Shown here: positions 1,233 to 7,372 of the stretch, piece after piece
Numbering within the stretch: position 1 is the stretch's first letter
Layout of the letters: every line of letters starts with the position of its first letter
From: a virus
Lineage: Duplodnaviria; Caudoviricetes
IMG/VR virus record: IMGVR_UViG_3300042446_001529
Span: 1-64,000 of that record
Length of the DNA stretch: 64,000 nt
Strand: one strand, 5' to 3'
The notes under the pieces: generated by a model
Database searches by the model: none
What the model was told of the DNA's origin: nothing
Seen by the model: only the letters and a program-made list of their open reading frames with translations
Program-made: the position numbers and the translations under genes

Positions 1233-1654
1233 AGTGTGTTTCTATAAGACTTTAGAGCAAATAAGTCTTGACTGTCAAGAGGACTGCCTCGCAGCACTTT
1301 GTCAACAGTAGCACCTACTTCTTCATCGCTGATATCTGCACGATGAATTCTTAATTTCTGTAGGCCTGCTGTGTCCAACGGCTTACCGGACATGGCTTGA
1401 TCAATCAGGGTCTTAAGTTCGTTATTATCGGTGGGTGCTGAATCAGATTTAGTTTTAGATGATTTAGTACCACTAGGTTCAAACCATCTAGACGGAGTCA
1501 ATAGCTTATCCATCTTGTCTGCACCTTTGTCATACTGTATCTTGGCGTTGGTGCCGTCTAGCCATTTACTAGGACTTAATACTTTGTCCATCTTGGACTT
1601 GCCTTTCTCGTAGGCCACTGGTCCGACTTCTACTACAATGTCACGTATTTTCAT
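1229..1654 (-). CDS. Hypothetical protein, possibly head-packaged
   Basis: 141 aa; N-terminal MKIRDIVVE; internal duplications (YEKGKSKMDKVLSPSKW / YDKGADKMDKLLTPSRW); start overlaps the upstream stop. Confidence 0.6.
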   Translation of the reverse strand: MKIRDIVVEVGPVAYEKGKSKMDKVLSPSKWLDGTNAKIQYDKGADKMDKLLTPSRWFEPSGTKSSKTKSDSAPTDNNELKTLIDQAMSGKPLDTAGLQKLRIHRADISDEEVGATVDKVLRGSPLDSQDLFALKSYRNTL

Positions 1655-2550
1655 TTTCTAAACACGCTGATAGTGCCCTTTGATAATCCAGTTTCAAATA
1701 TTTTCTGCTTGTGCATTTCCACACGAGCTGCTAATGCTTCTGACAATGCATTTCCGTAATTGATCTTACTGGCGTTTTGTTGAGATAATTGATTTGCCAT
1801 ATTACCCATCACTGCATTGCCAACTTTGGATTGTTTGGCAGCTGCTGCTCTAGTTTCACGTCTACGTACGGCACTTGGTGTCATACTTGGACCAGCGCCT
1901 TTTACTCTACCACCTCTTTTCTTAGTTTGCTGTTGATTGGAATTGTCAGCTGGTAATGTTGTTGGTTCAGGTGCTGCTGTTGTTGCCGCAGCTGGCTCTA
2001 CTGCTGTTGTTGGTTCAGGTGCTGCTGTTGTTGCCGCAGCCGGCTCTACTGCTGTTGTTGGTTCAGGTGCTGCTGTTGTTGCCGGTGGTGCTTTAGGTAC
2101 AGGAGCTGCTACTGATTTCTGCAGCAATTGCAAAATTCGTTGCTTGCCTTTTTTATCTAATTTGTTTACGTTGGCTTTAACCTGTGCGTACACAGTTTGA
2201 TTGGCTTTTTCTTGTGACTGAGCTTGCTGTTTATCTACAACTGCTGTGGTTTTTGCTAGCGCCGAGCCAGCAGGTCCTTGTGCATTGATATCCTGTGCTG
2301 TTGGAGGAGGTGTAGAAGGAGCAGGGTCAGTATAGCCAGGCTGTCCTGCATTAGGATCAGGATCATCACCTACCACAGCTTTGCCGGTCTGATACCCTTT
2401 CTTAAGAGCACGTCCAGCACCTACTACACCGCCAGCTACAGCTCCTACGCCTTTAGCAACACCACCTACAAATTTGCCTATTCCACGGCTTATTGGCCCT
2501 TCGTCTAGCTGTTCAAGTTGTGATTCAGTTAATAGTTCGTTAATTCTCAT
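1651..2550 (-). CDS. Low-complexity Ala/Pro/Thr-rich protein, possibly head-packaged
   Basis: 299 aa; MRINELLTE N-terminus, Gly-rich amphipathic segment, late promoter upstream. Confidence 0.65.
   Translation of the reverse strand: MRINELLTESQLEQLDEGPISRGIGKFVGGVAKGVGAVAGGVVGAGRALKKGYQTGKAVVGDDPDPNAGQPGYTDPAPSTPPPTAQDINAQGPAGSALAKTTAVVDKQQAQSQEKANQTVYAQVKANVNKLDKKGKQRILQLLQKSVAAPVPKAPPATTAAPEPTTAVEPAAATTAAPEPTTAVEPAAATTAAPEPTTLPADNSNQQQTKKRGGRVKGAGPSMTPSAVRRRETRAAAAKQSKVGNAVMGNMANQLSQQNASKINYGNALSEALAARVEMHKQKIFETGLSKGTISVFRK
1957..2084. repeat. 48-bp in-frame tandem repeat, about 2.7 copies
   Basis: Unit TGTTGTTGGTTCAGGTGCTGCTGTTGTTGCCGCAGCYGGCTCTACTGC starts at 1957, 2005 and 2053; encodes TTAAPEPTTAVEPAAA. 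Confidence 0.95.
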
Positions 2551-2578
2551 ATCAAGGCATTCCTATTAGGTATAACTT

Positions 2579-2586
2579 TATTTATT
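2579..2586 (-). promoter_or_regulatory. Late promoter (AATAAATA)
   Basis: One mismatch from TATAAATA, ~29 nt upstream of the ATG at 2550. Confidence 0.55.
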
Positions 2587-2608
2587 AAAAACGAGCTTTC
2601 GCTCGTTT
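2585..2608 (-). terminator. Intrinsic terminator-like hairpin
   Basis: Minus strand AAACGAGC-GAAA-GCTCGTTT continuing into a U tract; closes the structured region. Confidence 0.65.
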
Positions 2609-3040
2609 GCGTTTTCGCTTGTCGCTCAACGCCTTTGTCTTCTTTTTAATAATTATTGACATTGTAATTGCGAAGCAATTCAAGTATTATGCAGATTGTT
2701 CAGTCACACTTTGCCCAGGCCGGGCAAAGATAAGAGCATTATGCGAGTTGCACAGTACACTCTAGCGTTACAGCATTACAGAGGCGGTCATCCGGTACCT
2801 CGAGCTGCGTCTTTATACGACGGCGGTGTATACATTTACGCTAACAAATGCACACACGTAGGGTATTTCTCCCTTCTTTTTGCCTTGTTTTTCTTTTCAA
2901 ATAACCAAATCGCAGGTCTTAGTAGCGATCGTCATCCTTTCGGGTAGTGGTTAAGCACCTTTGCGGCAAGGTTTTCCATCCCTGTGTACACGTAGACCAG
3001 GTTTAGAGCGCACGAAATTAAGCCTGCGCTAGCCAAAAAA
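2585..3040 (-). ncRNA. Putative large structured non-coding RNA (~450 nt), family not recognised
   Basis: About ten stems in a gene-free gap; GAAA tetraloops and G-U wobbles work only on the minus strand (e.g. GUGUGUGCAUUUG/UAAAUGUAUACAC at 2826-2857); long-range pairs CUAGCG/CGCUAG and UAACCA/UGGUUA. Confidence 0.7.
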
Positions 3041-3045
3041 CCGCT

Positions 3046-3480
3046 TTATTTTGCCTGAGATTGTTCTAGTAGACGCTGTCTAAGTATGTTTGAACCGCCG
3101 ACTCTGACGTTTATAATGCCATTATAATAGTCATCAGTTTCTAAAACTCTGCGTTCAAACTGTTCTCTTGCCTCTAAATAACTGAGTTCTGCCTTGGATT
3201 TACAAAGGTAAAGTATTTCTCTTGTGAAGTTTTCCGGACCTAATGATTGGACGTCTGCGTTTAACCTGTCAGATGAACCATAGTATTCTCGCCAATCGCT
3301 TTCTACTACACTTCTTCTTTTGAGTTTTTTGCCTTTGAGTGGGGGTTTAGTGCGTTTGAATTGTGCTAGTTTCTTGCCTATGTACTTCTGTCCGGTAGTT
3401 TTATTCGTGATTATATAAACAAAGCCAATATAGCCTTCTGGTATTTCGTCTATTATTTGATTTTGAAACGTCCATTGCAC
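3046..3480 (-). CDS. Stand-alone GIY-YIG family endonuclease
   Basis: GFVYIIT...KYIGKK motif, YYGSS, conserved Glu (YLEAREQ) and YYN; no C-terminal DNA-binding repeats; GTG start. Confidence 0.85.
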   Translation of the reverse strand: MQWTFQNQIIDEIPEGYIGFVYIITNKTTGQKYIGKKLAQFKRTKPPLKGKKLKRRSVVESDWREYYGSSDRLNADVQSLGPENFTREILYLCKSKAELSYLEAREQFERRVLETDDYYNGIINVRVGGSNILRQRLLEQSQAK

Positions 3481-3491
3481 TCTTTAATTAG

Positions 3492-3710
3492 TTAAAGCTT
3501 CTTGCCTCTCATGCCTTTTCTGGATTCTCGCTGTGCCTTTCGTTTATCTTGTATTTCTACTCTTATGATTGATGCCTGTGTGCGTATTTCTGATAGCCAT
3601 GATCTTGCTTTGATACCTGCTTCGTTGGATTTTTTGTGATGAAATCGATCCTGCCATTTAAAGTATTCTTGAAAGGCATGGATCATACGATCGTGTGCGT
3701 CCGAACTCAT
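3492..3710 (-). CDS. Small basic helical protein (possibly histone H1/Hc1-like nucleoid protein)
   Basis: 72 aa; NEAGIKARSWLSEI...RVEIQDKRK pattern and basic tail. Confidence 0.5.
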   Translation of the reverse strand: MSSDAHDRMIHAFQEYFKWQDRFHHKKSNEAGIKARSWLSEIRTQASIIRVEIQDKRKAQRESRKGMRGKKL

Positions 3711-5485
3711 GCCATAATCTCTATGTCATTGCTATAACTAGTGAATCCATTTTCTTTGATCACTTTCAGCACGTGATTAACACGACTGGTCAAATCATCT
3801 CTATGTGAAATCAAGAACACATTCTTGTCACGCTCACGAGTCATGCGTTTCAACACAGCAATACTGGATTCAACGCCACTAGCATCCATGCCCGAATCCA
3901 CAAGTTCGTCGATAAACAACAAATTAATACTGGTGTATAGATTTTCCCACACATCACGGAACGCCCACGACAAAGATAAGATCAATCTGTTACGTTCTCC
4001 ACGGCTTAGATTGTCAAAATCTAGATCTTGTCCTAGCTGTGTGATAACCACAGTTAAATCATTCTGAAACTCCACGGTGTGAGGCAATCCGATCTTGTCC
4101 AAATAGTAGGTCAAGCGTTGATTCAAGAACGCAAGATTCTGATCTATTATTCGTTTGCGAACAAAACTATCTTTGTTGGTCAATAACTTGTGCAAGAACT
4201 CTTGGTGATCTTTAACACGCACCAACTCGTTGAGTCCGTTCCAATCTATTTCCTGTACGGCTGTTTCTTTGAGTTCAACGATCTGATCATCATAGGGATT
4301 TTCTTCTGCTGTCTTGATTGTAATGTCACGTTCTAGGCTGTCTAGAGTATTTTTATGATTCAATGCTGCTTCTAAACTGTCGTAGATCACTGAGGGACAT
4401 GCTCCAAGATCGCCTAGCAGCGATATTGCTTCAGTGATCACACTGAGCTCTTCAAGATGTTCGTTGATAGCGCCACGGCTTTCTTCAATCTGTGCAGACT
4501 TAGCAGACATGATTTCATTATGCTTGGTATCGTGCAGCTCTTGTCCGCAGGTATGACATTTGTGTTCTGTTAGACTGACTAATTCTCGTTCCAGTTTGTC
4601 TAGAATACGCTGTTCTTTTTCCAAAGCTGAAGTTTGTTTAGCACTCAGTGATGCTAGACTTTCGTGTTCTTTTTTGTTTGTATTCCAATCTGCCAAAGCT
4701 CGCTGATTTACTATTTCTTGATCGATGTCAATGTCGCTGAGTCGATCTATGCTTTTAAGCAAATTGGTCAGAGCAGTTTCTTTCTGTTCTTCCCACATGC
4801 GTTGTTTGCGTATCAGCGACTCTATGCTTTGTTGTATTCTTTCGTTACTGGCTTTGACAGTTTCTATTCTTGTGTTTTCTGTTGCAATACTGTCTTTGCT
4901 GATCCTGATTGCATCTTTAAGTGCTTCTGCTTTTTCTGAAAGTATGGTAATGCCCAACAGCTGTTCGATAATAGCACGTTGATCTGCAGCCTTCATGCTC
5001 AAGAACGGTTCTGTGTAGGTGTTTAAAGCAATGAGATGTTTGAACATTTCGTGTTTCATGCCAAACACTTCTTCAATGGCCTTTTGTGTTTCTCTGCTGT
5101 CGCCTTGACTTTCGTCGAGGTCGCTAAGTTCTTGTTCCTGATCATTGATACTGAATCTCAGTAAATTAGGCTTGCGACCTCGCTCAATATGATACTTGAC
5201 ACCATCTTTTTCAAAAGTCACTGTACACAGCATGCCTTTACAGTTGATCTTGTTAATAAGATTGTCACGCTTGATGTTGGTTAAAGCCTGGCCATAGATA
5301 GCATAGCTCAATCCGTTGATGATAGTGGTCTTACCTGTGCCGTTTCTAGCACCCGAGTCATCGCCACCTAGGTCCAAGTTTTCACCTAAGACCAAAGTAA
5401 GTTGTCCGCGATCAAAATCTATGGCCTGGGTCTGATTGCCCACGCTCATGAAGTTGCGTACTGTGAGATTGTTGATTTTAATCAT
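3707..5485 (-). CDS. Recombination endonuclease ATPase subunit (T4 gp46 / SbcC / Rad50-like)
   Basis: Walker A NGTGKTT, coiled coil with CHTC zinc hook, LSRGE signature, Walker B LFIDE, ISH. Confidence 0.95.
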   Translation of the reverse strand: MIKINNLTVRNFMSVGNQTQAIDFDRGQLTLVLGENLDLGGDDSGARNGTGKTTIINGLSYAIYGQALTNIKRDNLINKINCKGMLCTVTFEKDGVKYHIERGRKPNLLRFSINDQEQELSDLDESQGDSRETQKAIEEVFGMKHEMFKHLIALNTYTEPFLSMKAADQRAIIEQLLGITILSEKAEALKDAIRISKDSIATENTRIETVKASNERIQQSIESLIRKQRMWEEQKETALTNLLKSIDRLSDIDIDQEIVNQRALADWNTNKKEHESLASLSAKQTSALEKEQRILDKLERELVSLTEHKCHTCGQELHDTKHNEIMSAKSAQIEESRGAINEHLEELSVITEAISLLGDLGACPSVIYDSLEAALNHKNTLDSLERDITIKTAEENPYDDQIVELKETAVQEIDWNGLNELVRVKDHQEFLHKLLTNKDSFVRKRIIDQNLAFLNQRLTYYLDKIGLPHTVEFQNDLTVVITQLGQDLDFDNLSRGERNRLILSLSWAFRDVWENLYTSINLLFIDELVDSGMDASGVESSIAVLKRMTRERDKNVFLISHRDDLTSRVNHVLKVIKENGFTSYSNDIEIMA

Positions 5486-6492
5486 AGTTCGTTATAGATG
5501 TCCAACAGTAGTTTTTTGTCATAGGTATCGCTGTCTATGTTATTGATCTGATTCATCACAATGGTATCCACTGATTCGAATGTGATGTCTATGGGATTAA
5601 CAGCACTTTCTACTTCTACCTTTTCTGGAATCAGCATGAGTTCACGCAGTTTATACTGCGGCATAAACTGTTCTTTGATGAAGTTTGCTTCTTCAAAGGT
5701 TATAGGCAAGTCAATGGTCACACGACAATGCATCTTTTCACGCAGCAACTTGTCTGGAGTGTCGATGATCTGACTCAGCTTATAGGTTCTATATATAGGT
5801 TGATCAGGCCAAGAATGGTATTCGGGCTTGCCGCCCCAATCCATGATCATCATGCCACGATCATCATCACCTGCATCTGCATAGTTATGCGGAAATGCAT
5901 TGCCTATGTAAACCACATTGCCTTTTTGTTGCCGCTTGTGAAAGTGTCCAGTAAACACCAATTCTTGATGCTGAAAATGTCCAGTCTGCAACTGACCGTG
6001 ATCAGGCATCTGCACCATAGCATTCATGTAAAAATGCGGCAGTTCAAGATGACCGAATATGTATCTACTTTTCAGTTGTTTTACCGTGGTCCATTCGTCA
6101 CCTATCAGCCAAGGCATGATAGTGACATCGCCTTCTGTGTGTAATTCACGTATGGGCACAATGTTAGGAAACAACCTCATAAACTCTACAGAGTTAATTT
6201 CACGCTTGTCTTTGTAGAATAAATCGTGATTGCCCAGAATGAAATAGACTTTTTCAAAGCTCTGACTGAGTTTTTCTAAGTTACTCACAGTATAATTCAT
6301 AGTGCTGACATCAGTGGTACTGCGATTATGATGCCAGTCACCTAGAAATATAGCTGTTTCGCAGCCTTGTGCTCGAGCTGTGTCACAGAACCAAGACACG
6401 AAATCTTCGCAGTCTTGATTGTGTGTACGACTTCCGGATTTTAATCCAAAGTGTATGTCAGTGAAGCATGCAACTTTCTTAAAGAGATTCAT
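5482..6492 (-). CDS. Recombination endonuclease nuclease subunit (T4 gp47 / SbcD / Mre11-like)
   Basis: Metallophosphoesterase motifs DIHFG, GDWHH, GNHD, GHFH; adjacent to gp46. Confidence 0.95.
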   Translation of the reverse strand: MNLFKKVACFTDIHFGLKSGSRTHNQDCEDFVSWFCDTARAQGCETAIFLGDWHHNRSTTDVSTMNYTVSNLEKLSQSFEKVYFILGNHDLFYKDKREINSVEFMRLFPNIVPIRELHTEGDVTIMPWLIGDEWTTVKQLKSRYIFGHLELPHFYMNAMVQMPDHGQLQTGHFQHQELVFTGHFHKRQQKGNVVYIGNAFPHNYADAGDDDRGMMIMDWGGKPEYHSWPDQPIYRTYKLSQIIDTPDKLLREKMHCRVTIDLPITFEEANFIKEQFMPQYKLRELMLIPEKVEVESAVNPIDITFESVDTIVMNQINNIDSDTYDKKLLLDIYNEL

Positions 6493-6529: not shown

Positions 6530-7372
6530 TCAATCTAAACTATCTGTGATAGTGACTGGGCCAGGAGCGTTTTTACCACCATTGGCACTGTTTTGGCGTG
6601 TCCATGAAGGATTCATACCATTCATTTCGAGAATGTCGTCTCGAATGTTTTGATTGCGCTTCTCCAGGTTGATAATTCTAACGAATGAATTAGTGACAGC
6701 AGCAGTATAGTAAGCAAAAGGATTATCAGATTTACTTTCATCGAATTGGAGTCCTATTTGAGTTAGTTGAAGAATGGCTTGACCTTTCATTTCATCATTG
6801 TATGTGTAGCCCCTGACGTTGCCTCTAGTGGCATATCTCTCACAGAGCTTGATAAACATGCGAGCTAGGTCGTTGGTCATTTGCCCGTGATCTTTGGAAA
6901 ACTCTCCACGATCTAGATCTCCTTTCCAATGACTTTTGCCCACACAGATCAAGTTGTCGTTGTCGTCATATTTCCAATGCTGAAAAGGCGGGAAGTTTAC
7001 TTTATCATGACTGTCAGCAGTGTTTTTAAGAGTTTTCTTACGGCCCGGCGCTAATGGTATGTGTGTAAAGGTCATCACACGAAAAACTAGATCTTGTTTC
7101 TTCACTTTGCGATAGTCTACTTCAAATTCTTTTGCAGGCATTTTTTTACCAGCTGCGGTCACAGCTGCTTCGTGCGCAGCTTTGGACATTTTAGATGCCC
7201 TATTTCGTTTGGCTTCTGCAATAGTTCGGATGTTCAGTTTGTCTAAGGTAGTAACGATTAGATCGTATTCTCCGTATGCAGGATCTGTGAAACTACTGTA
7301 GGTATTTTTGCTTAGATGTATTTCTCTTAGTAAATCTTTGTTGGTTAGATACTTAATTTTAGGCACAATCAT
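6530..7372 (-). CDS. Late-transcription sigma factor (T4 gp55-like)
   Basis: YLTNKDLL N-terminus, YTYNDEM..AI, FD..KS.NPFAYYT motifs; same gp55-gp47-gp46 order as T4. Confidence 0.85.
   Translation of the reverse strand: MIVPKIKYLTNKDLLREIHLSKNTYSSFTDPAYGEYDLIVTTLDKLNIRTIAEAKRNRASKMSKAAHEAAVTAAGKKMPAKEFEVDYRKVKKQDLVFRVMTFTHIPLAPGRKKTLKNTADSHDKVNFPPFQHWKYDDNDNLICVGKSHWKGDLDRGEFSKDHGQMTNDLARMFIKLCERYATRGNVRGYTYNDEMKGQAILQLTQIGLQFDESKSDNPFAYYTAAVTNSFVRIINLEKRNQNIRDDILEMNGMNPSWTRQNSANGGKNAPGPVTITDSLD

What the first reader, a model, noticed from the sequence alone, without database searches (positions are those of the whole stretch)
2585..3480. Large structured RNA candidate directly behind a stand-alone GIY-YIG nuclease
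Seen: the only large gene-free gap in this dense window (~495 bp) starts at the GIY-YIG stop and is full of minus-strand stems. These include GCGCA/UGCGC, CCUG/CAGG, CCUU/AAGG, and a UAACCA/UGGUUA multiloop holding CC-GAAA-GG and AUCGC/GCGAU. There is also AGGG/CCCU, a 13-bp stem with three G-U pairs (2826-2857) and CGUC/GACG. A nested GCAGC-GAGG-CGG/CCG-CCUC-GCUGU arm follows, then CUUUGCCC/GGGCAAAG and a GAAA terminator hairpin. CUAGCG (3032-3027) can pair with CGCUAG (2767-2762) to close a ~270-nt domain. Wobbles and GNRA loops favour an RNA on the same strand as the nuclease. The 144-aa protein lacks the DNA-recognition tail of Seg-type homing endonucleases and has a basic insert (KRTKPPLKGKKLKRR). 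Inference: possibly a nuclease-RNA complex in which RNA supplies scaffold or specificity, by analogy with HEARO/omega RNAs. Alternatives are a ribozyme, or a replication or packaging RNA. I do not recognise it as a tRNA, tmRNA, RNase P RNA or intron.
Basis: partly seen in the sequence, partly recalled or inferred. Interest (0 to 1): 0.85.

Follow-up and report, generated by a model that had tools for sequence, protein, structure and literature searches.

The report
Large phage RNA, partly known motif
The gap behind the small nuclease gene encodes a real, roughly 455-base folded RNA whose first third is an already catalogued motif of unknown function, and the same RNA also sits in bacterial genomic islands without that nuclease, so it is probably not the nuclease's guide.

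Summary
Window 2590-3044 (minus strand) is a structured RNA of about 455 nt. My 96-pair model is 85.2% paired across 37 diverse relatives, against 72.1% in shuffles (0 of 500 reach it) and 37-43% when slid.

Its 5' third (2899-3034) is Rfam RF01718, Polynucleobacter-1, at 102.6 bits against a cut-off of 37. That refutes novelty for this part.

New here:
- The RNA continues through a pseudoknotted middle domain.
- A 3' domain carries two 16-nt boxes that change identically in every lineage.

Linkage to the nuclease is lineage-specific:
- The GIY-YIG gene precedes the RNA in 114 of 119 and 101 of 112 viral loci.
- In at least two loci a PD-(D/E)XK nuclease replaces it.
- Three cultured phages with the orthologue have no RF01718.
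- 18 of 18 bacterial copies lie beside a DUF6641-family gene in tRNA-integrated islands, with no GIY-YIG.

Best reading: an autonomous RNA module of mobile elements, made as the 3' extension of the phage's gp47-gp46-nuclease operon. It probably acts in trans through the two boxes. Its function is unknown. The nuclease-guide idea is not excluded but is weakly supported.

The parts
2590..3044 (-). Whole structured RNA, about 455 nt. It runs from the 5' strand of pseudoknot PK1 to the end of terminal hairpin P12.
   Evidence: Conserved over its whole length in 10 of 10 loci, whatever gene follows. Covariation.
2899..3034 (-). Module A, the Rfam RF01718 Polynucleobacter-1 domain (helices P1-P4).
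   Evidence: 102.6 bits against a gathering score of 37, matching model positions 1-141 of 141.
3040..3044 (-). PK1 5' strand (GCGGU). It pairs with the P3 loop at 2963-2967. It lies outside the Rfam model and 1 nt after the GIY-YIG stop codon.
   Evidence: 79-87% of 87 phage sequences are paired at each position, gaps counted as unpaired, with several pair types. In bacteria 18 of 18 pair CUACUG with CAGUAG, with compensatory variants.
2762..2898 (-). Module B. It holds the P5 hairpin, the 13-bp P6 stem with a UUAGCG loop, the P7/P8 arm around GGUACCGGAUGACCGCC, and pseudoknot PK2 (2817-2821 with 2787-2791).
   Evidence: helices 9-13. PK2 is 97.3% paired and 3 of its 5 pairs covary. In bacteria 18 of 18 keep all 5 pairs, with one double change. 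There is a weak sub-threshold likeness to cow-rumen-2, at 22.4 and 23.5 bits.
2735..2750 (-). Box 1 (CAACUC-GC-AUAAU-G-C-U).
   Evidence: It changes identically with box 2 in phage and bacterial lineages.
2683..2698 (-). Box 2 (CAAUCU-GC-AUAAU-A-C-U), 52 nt after box 1.
   Evidence: Same calls as box 1. Spacing is 52 nt in phage and 59 nt in 12 of the 17 bacterial loci where both boxes were found.
2709..2729 (-). P9 hairpin, between the two boxes.
   Evidence: helix 14. It is replaced by a different hairpin at the same place in L008 and L011.
2666..2680 (-). P10 hairpin with an invariant GCUUCGC apex.
   Evidence: The top mutual-information pair is 2678:2668, seen as CG 34, UA 26, GC 25, AU 2.
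2609..2632 (-). P11 stem around GAGCGACAAGCGAA.
   Evidence: helices 16, 17. The same element is present in the bacterial form.
2590..2607 (-). P12 terminal hairpin with a GAAA loop, followed here by U5.
   Evidence: 95.2% paired and 6 of 7 pairs covary. The scan did not call it a terminator.
2578..2586 (-). AATAAATAA, a late-promoter-like box 28 nt before the next gene's ATG.
   Evidence: Conserved in 10 of 10 loci and in most of the 58 loci. The late-promoter meaning is inferred from recalled T4 knowledge. TATAAATA is not enriched in the window.
3046..3480 (-). Gene for the 144-aa stand-alone GIY-YIG nuclease.
   Evidence: PF19835 E 8.5e-37. phrog_447 E 1.8e-40.
3492..3710 (-). 72-aa ORF with no family match, kept in synteny.
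3707..6492 (-). gp46-like (592 aa) and gp47-like (336 aa) recombination nuclease genes at the head of the operon.
   Evidence: SMC_N/AAA_23 and Metallophos matches. The gp46/gp47 names come from my own knowledge of T4.
1651..2550 (-). Downstream 299-aa low-complexity ORF. It is one of at least four different genes that follow the RNA in relatives.

Best explanation
Shown: the gap encodes a structured non-coding RNA of about 455 nt on the minus strand.
- Its 5' domain is the known Rfam family Polynucleobacter-1.
- It continues through a pseudoknotted middle domain.
- Its 3' domain carries two co-evolving 16-nt boxes, two more hairpins and a terminal hairpin.

Shown: the same full-length RNA is a portable module. 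It occurs in more than 200 contigs of freshwater T4-like phages. It also occurs in tRNA-integrated genomic islands in 16 of 141 genomes of one bacterial genus. I infer that genus is Polynucleobacter from the record title of one MAG contig.

Inferred:
- In the phage the RNA is made as the 3' extension of the gp47-gp46-orf72-nuclease transcript. Its first paired nucleotides lie 1 nt after the nuclease's stop codon, and no promoter-like site lies in between.
- It folds on its own.
- It acts in trans as a folded RNA that engages a partner through the two equivalent boxes. The partner could be a dimeric protein or a repeated or shared nucleic-acid sequence.
- It does not need the GIY-YIG nuclease.
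- The nuclease is more likely a recombination-module enzyme that happens to be the last gene of the operon.
For: Identity:
- RF01718 at 102.6 bits, full model.
- 47 of 50 related viral records score over the cut-off, one copy each.

Structure:
- PK1 and PK2 are kept in phage and bacterial forms with different sequences.
- The many G-U pairs fit this strand only.

Autonomy from the nuclease:
- The bacterial form is also about 480-500 nt and conserved end to end.
- It lies beside the same gene family in 18 of 18 loci. The two members I scanned are DUF6641.
- It sits in a conserved island module in 13 of 13 20-kb loci. tRNA-derived direct repeats of 43-49 nt flank two of these.
- None of these loci has a GIY-YIG gene.
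- The phage record has none of the island's specific proteins.
- GIY-YIG orthologues occur singly in 395 cultured phage records. Three of three records checked lack RF01718.
- L192 and L227 have a PDDEXK_15 nuclease in the GIY-YIG's place. L268 has the RNA between other genes.

Transcription:
- Contigs from 4 of 4 freshwater metatranscriptome runs that I laid cover the RNA.
- Three of these contigs bridge the nuclease's 3' end into the RNA: 2777-3162, 2784-3228 and 2857-3067.
- No sigma-70-like site lies on the minus strand before the RNA.

Boxes:
- Identical co-variation appears in at least 10 haplotypes across phages and bacteria.
Against: - No experiment or raw-read end mapping shows a discrete RNA. 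The laid runs are assembled contigs, and DNA carry-over cannot be excluded.
- The partner of the boxes is unknown.
- A trans role is inferred only from portability and from the lack of a conserved downstream gene.
- Adjacency to a small nuclease is very tight (stop codon 1 nt from PK1) and survives a swap of nuclease family. A functional link could also explain this.
- The 2010 authors scored the motif as likely cis-regulatory (table in PMC2864571, passages read).
- The window's record is only about 28% complete.
Confidence: 0.55

Rival explanations
1. Nuclease partner. The RNA binds the upstream minimal nuclease (GIY-YIG, or PD-(D/E)XK in some phages) and supplies scaffold or target specificity, with the two boxes acting as guide-like segments.
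For: - The nuclease's stop codon abuts the RNA's first pairing in the window and in L192.
- The GIY-YIG gene precedes the RNA in 114 of 119 and 101 of 112 viral loci.
- Adjacency persists when the nuclease family is swapped.
- The neighbouring enzymes are catalytic domains only: GIY-YIG 144 aa, PDDEXK_15 173-188 aa, and in islands a 188-aa tyrosine recombinase.
- The boxes vary by lineage, as specificity determinants would.
Against: - 18 of 18 bacterial copies have no GIY-YIG or PD-(D/E)XK gene next to them.
- The orthologous nuclease works in other contexts with no RF01718 anywhere in 3 of 3 complete phage genomes.
- There are few box types among more than 200 phage loci.
- The box has no second match in the 64-kb window on either strand beyond chance.
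- Box sequences do not match the islands' att repeats.
Confidence: 0.12
2. Cis-acting boundary or 3'-UTR element. The fold stabilises the early operon's mRNA or controls read-through from early genes into the late genes that follow.
For: - It always sits between the operon's last gene and a gene preceded by a conserved AATAAATAA box.
- It has a terminal hairpin, followed by U5 in the window.
- The 2010 table rates the motif as likely cis-regulatory (PMC2864571, passages read).
Against: - In bacteria the RNA is divergent from its upstream neighbour, and in 9 of 18 loci the nearest ORF after it lies on the opposite strand, so there it is in nobody's UTR.
- More than 450 nt with two pseudoknots and invariant loops is far more than a stabiliser needs.
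- The scan calls no terminator, and the U-run is not conserved.
- At least four unrelated genes follow it.
Confidence: 0.15
3. Ribozyme. The conserved pseudoknotted core catalyses self-cleavage or another reaction, freeing the RNA from the mRNA.
For: - Size, two pseudoknots and blocks of invariant unpaired nucleotides.
- The RNA must be released from a longer transcript if it is co-transcribed.
- Four RNA contigs from four studies end at 2776-2784.
Against: - No known ribozyme family matches even at E up to 1.
- The shared contig ends fall at the edge of the most conserved block, where assembly graphs of mixed strains branch, and another contig runs through them (2586-2805).
- No cleavage assay was possible.
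Confidence: 0.08
4. DNA-level element. The region would be an origin of replication or transfer whose hairpins form in single-stranded DNA, with the two boxes as iteron-like protein sites.
For: - The direct repeats evolve in concert, as iterons do with their initiator.
- The element occurs in mobile DNA of two kinds.
- Covariation alone cannot tell RNA from single-stranded DNA of the same strand.
Against: - The stretch is present in RNA libraries.
- Box spacing differs, 52 nt against 59 nt.
- No shared DNA-binding protein was found between phage and island.
- The 5' domain matches a curated RNA family with a consensus fold.
Confidence: 0.07
5. Protein-coding. The 83-aa plus-strand ORF at 2696-2947 would be a real gene, and the conservation would be coding conservation.
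For: The ORF recurs with the same length in 4 close relatives (L002, L007, L010, L013).
Against: - It has no family match that I know of. I did not scan it.
- It is absent from more distant loci listed (L012, L014).
- Substitutions are compensatory in helices of the opposite strand.
- It overlaps a 102-bit Rfam match.
Confidence: 0.01

Closest known systems
Rfam RF01718, Polynucleobacter-1 RNA motif (Weinberg et al. 2010, PMC2864571)
   Same: Window 2899-3034 matches the full model at 102.6 bits. It shows the same helices and comes from the same habitat and taxa (fresh water, Burkholderiales).
   Different: - The Rfam model is 141 positions, whereas the conserved RNA here is about 455 nt.
- PK1 starts before the model, and two further domains follow it.
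- The 2010 table rates the motif as likely cis-regulatory, but the contexts found here do not fit a 5' UTR.
Rfam RF02947, cow-rumen-2 RNA motif
   Same: Module B shares the order of elements and several loop motifs: a UUAGC loop, CCGCC, a GGAUGACC loop and GUAA (alignment).
   Different: It scores only 22.4 and 23.5 bits against a gathering score of 66. It is not a member, and at most a distant relative.
HEARO / omega-RNA systems (IscB, IsrB, TnpB)
   Same: A large structured RNA is encoded directly next to a small nuclease gene in a mobile genome.
   Different: - The nuclease family is GIY-YIG or PD-(D/E)XK, not RuvC/HNH.
- RNA and nuclease are separable in nature.
- No terminal guide segment was found.
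- This comparison rests on my recalled knowledge of those systems.
SGI1 sgm-sRNA (PMC9299015, abstract and passages read)
   Same: An integrative island encodes a non-coding RNA close to a tyrosine-recombinase-family gene, and the RNA derives from the 3' end of a longer transcript.
   Different: - No sequence or structure comparison was made.
- That RNA is a small RNA needed for conjugative mobilisation.
- The RNA here is also carried by lytic-type T4-like phages.
Seg-type free-standing GIY-YIG homing endonucleases of T4
   Same: The catalytic domain family is the same (PF19835 SegE_GIY-YIG, E 8.5e-37).
   Different: - It has no DNA-binding tail.
- It is single-copy and kept in synteny across hundreds of phages, rather than sporadic.
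- It can be displaced by a PDDEXK_15 protein whose PHROG family is labelled 'RusA-like Holliday junction resolvase'.

Membership tests
Rfam RF01718 Polynucleobacter-1 | Covariance-model score at or above the curated gathering score (37 bits). | tested here: met
   102.6 bits, E 4.4e-21 for the whole window. The whole-record search gives the same score.
Rfam RF01718 Polynucleobacter-1 | Full-length match with the family's helices present. | tested here: met
   Model positions 1-141 of 141 are matched. P1, P4 and P4b are 90-100% paired with compensatory changes across 37 relatives.
Rfam RF01718 Polynucleobacter-1 | 5'-UTR (cis-regulatory) placement, as proposed in 2010. | tested here: not met
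   In the phage the RNA follows a stop codon, and at least four different genes follow it. In bacteria it is divergent from its upstream neighbour in 18 of 18 loci, and in 9 of 18 the nearest ORF after it lies on the opposite strand. This feature is a proposal, not part of the model.
Rfam RF02947 cow-rumen-2 | Score at or above the gathering score (66 bits). | tested here: not met
   22.4 bits in the window and 23.5 bits in L070. No hit was listed in the other four phage loci.
RNA-guided nuclease systems of the HEARO / omega-RNA kind | Obligate co-occurrence of the RNA with its nuclease. | tested here: not met
   The RNA occurs without the nuclease in 18 of 18 bacterial loci. The nuclease occurs without the RNA in 3 of 3 cultured phage genomes.
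RNA-guided nuclease systems of the HEARO / omega-RNA kind | A variable guide segment with matching targets. | tested here: inconclusive
   Two lineage-variable boxes exist. No target was found in the window, in cis or at island ends. Host genomes of the phage were not searched.
Seg-type homing endonuclease | GIY-YIG catalytic domain. | tested here: met
   PF19835 E 8.5e-37, residues 3-123.
Seg-type homing endonuclease | C-terminal DNA-binding domain. | tested here: not met
   The protein is 144 aa, with only 21 residues after the domain. The family profile phrog_447 is itself 148 positions long.
Seg-type homing endonuclease | Sporadic, mobile distribution. | tested here: not met
   It holds the same synteny in 114 of 119 and 101 of 112 loci. 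There is one copy per record in 395 cultured phage records.
Group I intron carrying a GIY-YIG gene | Match to a group I intron model. | tested here: not met
   No intron family appears among the matches up to E = 1 in 2400-3700.
Intrinsic terminator (P12) | GC-rich hairpin followed by a U-run. | tested here: inconclusive
   The window has the hairpin plus U5. The consensus scan called none, and the U-run is missing in relatives such as L007.

The most novel reading that the evidence does not exclude
Polynucleobacter-1 would be the 5' domain of a new class of doubly pseudoknotted RNA of about 0.5 kb that travels between T4-like phages and the genomic islands of their hosts. Its two concertedly evolving boxes would be programmable recognition segments. 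They could direct minimal, catalytic-domain-only DNA enzymes encoded nearby (GIY-YIG, PD-(D/E)XK, short tyrosine recombinase). Alternatively, they could act as an RNA weapon or decoy in phage-island conflict.
Probability: 0.12. Interest if true: 0.9.

Novelty: new variant of a known kind. Interest (0 to 1): 0.55.

Why it matters
Polynucleobacter-1 has been an orphan motif since 2010. My full-text search found it named only in that paper.

This analysis gives it concrete handles:
- A full length of about 455-500 nt.
- Two pseudoknots and two co-evolving boxes.
- Two kinds of mobile carrier: T4-like phages and tRNA-integrated islands.

Large, complex-folded bacterial RNAs of unknown function are few, and several have turned out to have unusual biochemistry. 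I say that from recall.

The analysis also re-reads a widespread phage gene that GenBank and PHROGs label 'NAD synthetase'. It is a stand-alone GIY-YIG nuclease of the recombination module, and a PD-(D/E)XK nuclease can replace it.

Tried and rejected
- DNA similarity to cultured phages found nothing for the gap or for the first 12 kb.
- ARAGORN found no tRNA or tmRNA in the window.
- A sequence search of the nuclease against PDB found nothing.
- The alternative insert in L008 gave no Rfam match worth noting. The best were 14.5 and 11.8 bits.
- Searching for a third segment complementary to the boxes within the bacterial RNA and its flanks gave no consistent position.
- Box matches elsewhere in the window were at chance level: 2 found against 1.05 expected, and 31 of 100 shuffles had at least 2.
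- The islands' direct repeats are tRNA ends or palindromes, not box sequences.
- TATAAATA and AATAAATAA are not enriched in the window, so the late-promoter reading of 2578-2586 stays an inference.
- The sigma-70 and terminator scan gave nothing useful on the minus strand.
- The downstream gene (2268-2535) has little or no cover in the laid RNA runs.
- PADLOC gave no defence-system call for the island proteins beyond generic AAA hits.
- Papers on DUF6641: none found.
- mafft-qinsi was not usable, so I used L-INS-i.
- I did not build a covariance model of the full RNA, run R-scape, scan the metagenome collection, or fold the protein.
Full report
**Setting**

The window is part of a 98.6-kb viral record that CheckV rates about 28% complete. 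On the minus strand the gene order is as follows:
- a late sigma factor like gp55 (6530-7372; phrog_12791, E 5e-80)
- a metallophosphatase like gp47 (5482-6492)
- an SMC-type ATPase like gp46 (3707-5485)
- a 72-aa ORF (3492-3710)
- a 144-aa GIY-YIG protein (3046-3480; PF19835, E 8.5e-37)
- a 495-nt gap (2551-3045)
- a 299-aa low-complexity ORF (1651-2550)

The gp46, gp47 and gp55 names rest on my knowledge of T4. The gap is the largest internal non-coding stretch, once an 83-aa antisense ORF that overlaps the RNA is set aside.

Yes. The minus strand folds better than all 100 shuffles (z = -3.47).

I collected relatives in three ways:
- through the downstream protein (13 loci)
- through a 28-nt pattern of the 3' domain (at least 119 viral contigs)
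- through a pattern of the 5' domain (112 further loci)

The whole gap is conserved whatever gene follows it.

RNAalifold on 58 sequences gave 38 pairs, 26 of them with compensatory changes. A mutual-information scan of 87 distinct sequences ranked Watson-Crick pairs of hairpins at the top.

I then wrote a model of 16 helices and 2 pseudoknots and counted it on a structure-blind alignment of 37 diverse sequences:
- 85.2% of cells are paired, against 72.1% in shuffles (0 of 500 reach it) and 37-43% with slid partners.
- 61 of 96 pairs change on both sides.
- The covariation score is 0.359, against 0.145 shuffled and 0.065-0.082 slid.

Two do not:
- The CGUC/GACG hairpin fails. Its 5' arm instead pairs with the AUGAC loop as pseudoknot PK2, which is 97.3% paired.
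- The CUAGCG x CGCUAG closing helix also fails.

**What it is**

Rfam places 2899-3034 in RF01718, Polynucleobacter-1, at 102.6 bits against a cut-off of 37, over the full model. Weinberg et al. 2010 list this motif as a likely RNA, likely cis-regulatory, from Burkholderiales and fresh or estuarine water. I read passages of PMC2864571. It is the only paper that my full-text search found for the name.

So the 5' third is known. The rest is not covered by any Rfam family. Module B resembles cow-rumen-2 in element order and loop motifs, but reaches only 22.4 and 23.5 bits against a cut-off of 66.

Features that lie outside the Rfam model:
- **PK1.** The five nucleotides right after the nuclease's stop codon pair with the P3 loop. 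In bacteria a different sequence pair does the same in 18 of 18 loci, with compensatory variants.
- **PK2.** It is kept in 18 of 18 bacterial copies, again with different sequences.
- **A 3' domain with four hairpins.**

**The two boxes**

Box 1 (2735-2750) and box 2 (2683-2698) are direct repeats 52 nt apart. Their variable positions change together and identically, not complementarily.
- In phages the cores are GCAUAAU, AGAUAAU, GGAUAAU and AGAUGAA. The flanks are CAA, GAA or CCA, and are the same in both boxes of a genome.
- In bacteria the cores are AGCGA, AUCAA, AGAGA, AACAA, GGAGA and AGCAA, with a mismatch in three loci.

I found no third segment that could pair with both. I also found no extra copies in the window and no match to the islands' att repeats. 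This remains unexplained. It points to two equivalent contacts with one co-evolving partner.

**Linkage with the nuclease**

Within this phage lineage the linkage is strong:
- The GIY-YIG gene lies directly upstream in 114 of 119 loci. The other five have under 330 nt of upstream sequence.
- It lies upstream in 101 of 112 loci of the second set, of which 110 have the 5' domain.
- RF01718 scores over the cut-off in 47 of 50 representative records. I searched 50 of 60 representatives because of a size limit.

Outside the lineage the linkage breaks:
- Five of about 130 loci of the first two sets keep the GIY-YIG gene and the 3' domain, but carry an unrelated insert of about 580 nt in place of modules A and B.
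- L192 and L227 have a PDDEXK_15 nuclease (PF24608, E 2.5e-29) exactly where the GIY-YIG gene should be, again abutting the RNA.
- L268 has the RNA between a 197-aa ORF and a kinase-like gene.
- Orthologues of the GIY-YIG protein occur once per genome in 395 cultured phage records, mostly T4-like cyanophages, and are often labelled 'NAD synthetase'.
- In Melnitz, S-SRM01 and ACP17 the gene sits elsewhere, with no large gap behind it. RF01718 is absent from all three genomes.

**The bacterial form**

RF01718 scores over the cut-off in 16 of 141 genomes sampled from the genus of a MAG whose contig title reads Polynucleobacter. Many copies are on complete chromosomes, and some genomes have two.

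The RNA there is also about 480-500 nt and conserved to its terminal hairpin.

In 18 of 18 loci it is divergent from one gene family. The two members I scanned are DUF6641.

In 13 of 13 20-kb loci the RNA is followed by a fixed module:
- a 188-aa tyrosine recombinase with the catalytic domain only
- two unknown proteins
- an AAA ATPase
- a 424-aa integrase

tRNA-derived direct repeats of 43-49 nt flank two of the islands, and tRNA genes lie within 10 kb in 6 of 13. None has a GIY-YIG gene, and the phage record has none of the island's specific proteins.

Three MAG contigs that carry the phage form repeat the phage synteny, so they are probably binned phage DNA.

**Expression**

Seventeen freshwater or lake RNA libraries hold part of the stretch. 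I laid four, and all four cover the RNA. Three contigs bridge the nuclease's 3' end into the RNA.

These are assembled contigs, so ends, strand and DNA carry-over are not settled. Four contigs end at 2776-2784. That is also the edge of the most conserved block, and another contig runs through it.

**How it most likely works**

Shown:
- a conserved, doubly pseudoknotted RNA of about 455 nt
- membership of its 5' domain in RF01718
- portability between phages and islands
- independence from the GIY-YIG gene in nature

Inferred:
- co-transcription with the gp47-gp46-nuclease operon
- release or persistence as a folded RNA
- action in trans through the two boxes on a partner not yet known

The swap between the GIY-YIG protein and a PDDEXK_15 protein suggests a different role for the nuclease. 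The PHROG family of the PDDEXK_15 protein is labelled a Holliday-junction resolvase. This suggests that the nuclease serves the recombination module rather than homing or the RNA.

The rival readings are a nuclease partner, a cis boundary element, a ribozyme and a DNA-level origin. Each is listed with its odds under Rival explanations.

**Novelty**

To my knowledge, and by the searches, these points are new:
- the full extent of the RNA
- the pseudoknots
- the co-evolving boxes
- the phage carriers
- the island context

Noticed in passing
L008:1752-2330, L011:1731-2310, also L075, L082, L083: In 5 loci modules A and B are replaced by an unrelated insert of about 580 nt that holds an 86-aa ORF with no family match. 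Box 1 onward is kept, with a different hairpin in place of P9.
   Followed up: partly
L192:3963-4484, L227:8819-9385: A PDDEXK_15 nuclease (PF24608; phrog_244, labelled 'RusA-like Holliday junction resolvase') occupies the GIY-YIG gene's slot between the small ORF and the RNA. This looks like a non-orthologous displacement inside the gp46/gp47 module.
   Followed up: partly
window 3046-3480 and 395 cultured phage records: The stand-alone GIY-YIG family (phrog_447) is widely annotated as 'NAD synthetase' in GenBank and PHROGs. This looks like a propagated mislabel.
   Followed up: partly
L003, L005, L006, L010 (position 1 of each contig): Four viral contigs begin inside the Polynucleobacter-1 domain. 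These are probably assembly breaks, where many strains share the conserved RNA but differ upstream.
   Followed up: no
window 1651-2550: The downstream 299-aa ORF has tandem Ala/Pro/Thr-rich repeats and varies from 283 to 386 aa among full-length relatives. Extra genes of 470-550 aa are inserted between it and the RNA in several loci.
   Followed up: no
L139:1323-1369, L142:473-519, L143:1624-1670: There is a weak, sub-threshold likeness to the potC RNA motif (23.7-25.8 bits against a cut-off of 44) near the start of the DUF6641-family gene, about 130 nt before the RNA in the bacterial islands.
   Followed up: no
L268:8399-10215: This is a third phage context. The RNA lies between a 197-aa unknown ORF and a protein like the T7 gp0.7 kinase (phrog_15752, E 2.1e-15). 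Its two boxes both read AGAUGAA.
   Followed up: partly
L160-L171 (bacterial islands): Palindromes of the type TGTCGTTTTAAACGACA and GTCCTTTTAAAGGAC recur on both sides of the islands. The island protein B3 carries a WWWAYLRRNEDYL motif, which reminds me (from recall) of regulators of integrative elements.
   Followed up: no
window 6530-7372: The gp55-like late sigma factor is 280 aa. Only residues 134-262 match the 181-position phrog_234 profile, so it carries a long N-terminal extension.
   Followed up: no
L070:583-741: There is a weak hit to the manA RNA motif, which is known from T4-like cyanophages. It scores 18.3 bits against a cut-off of 55.2, over module C of one phage locus, and is probably chance.
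   Followed up: no
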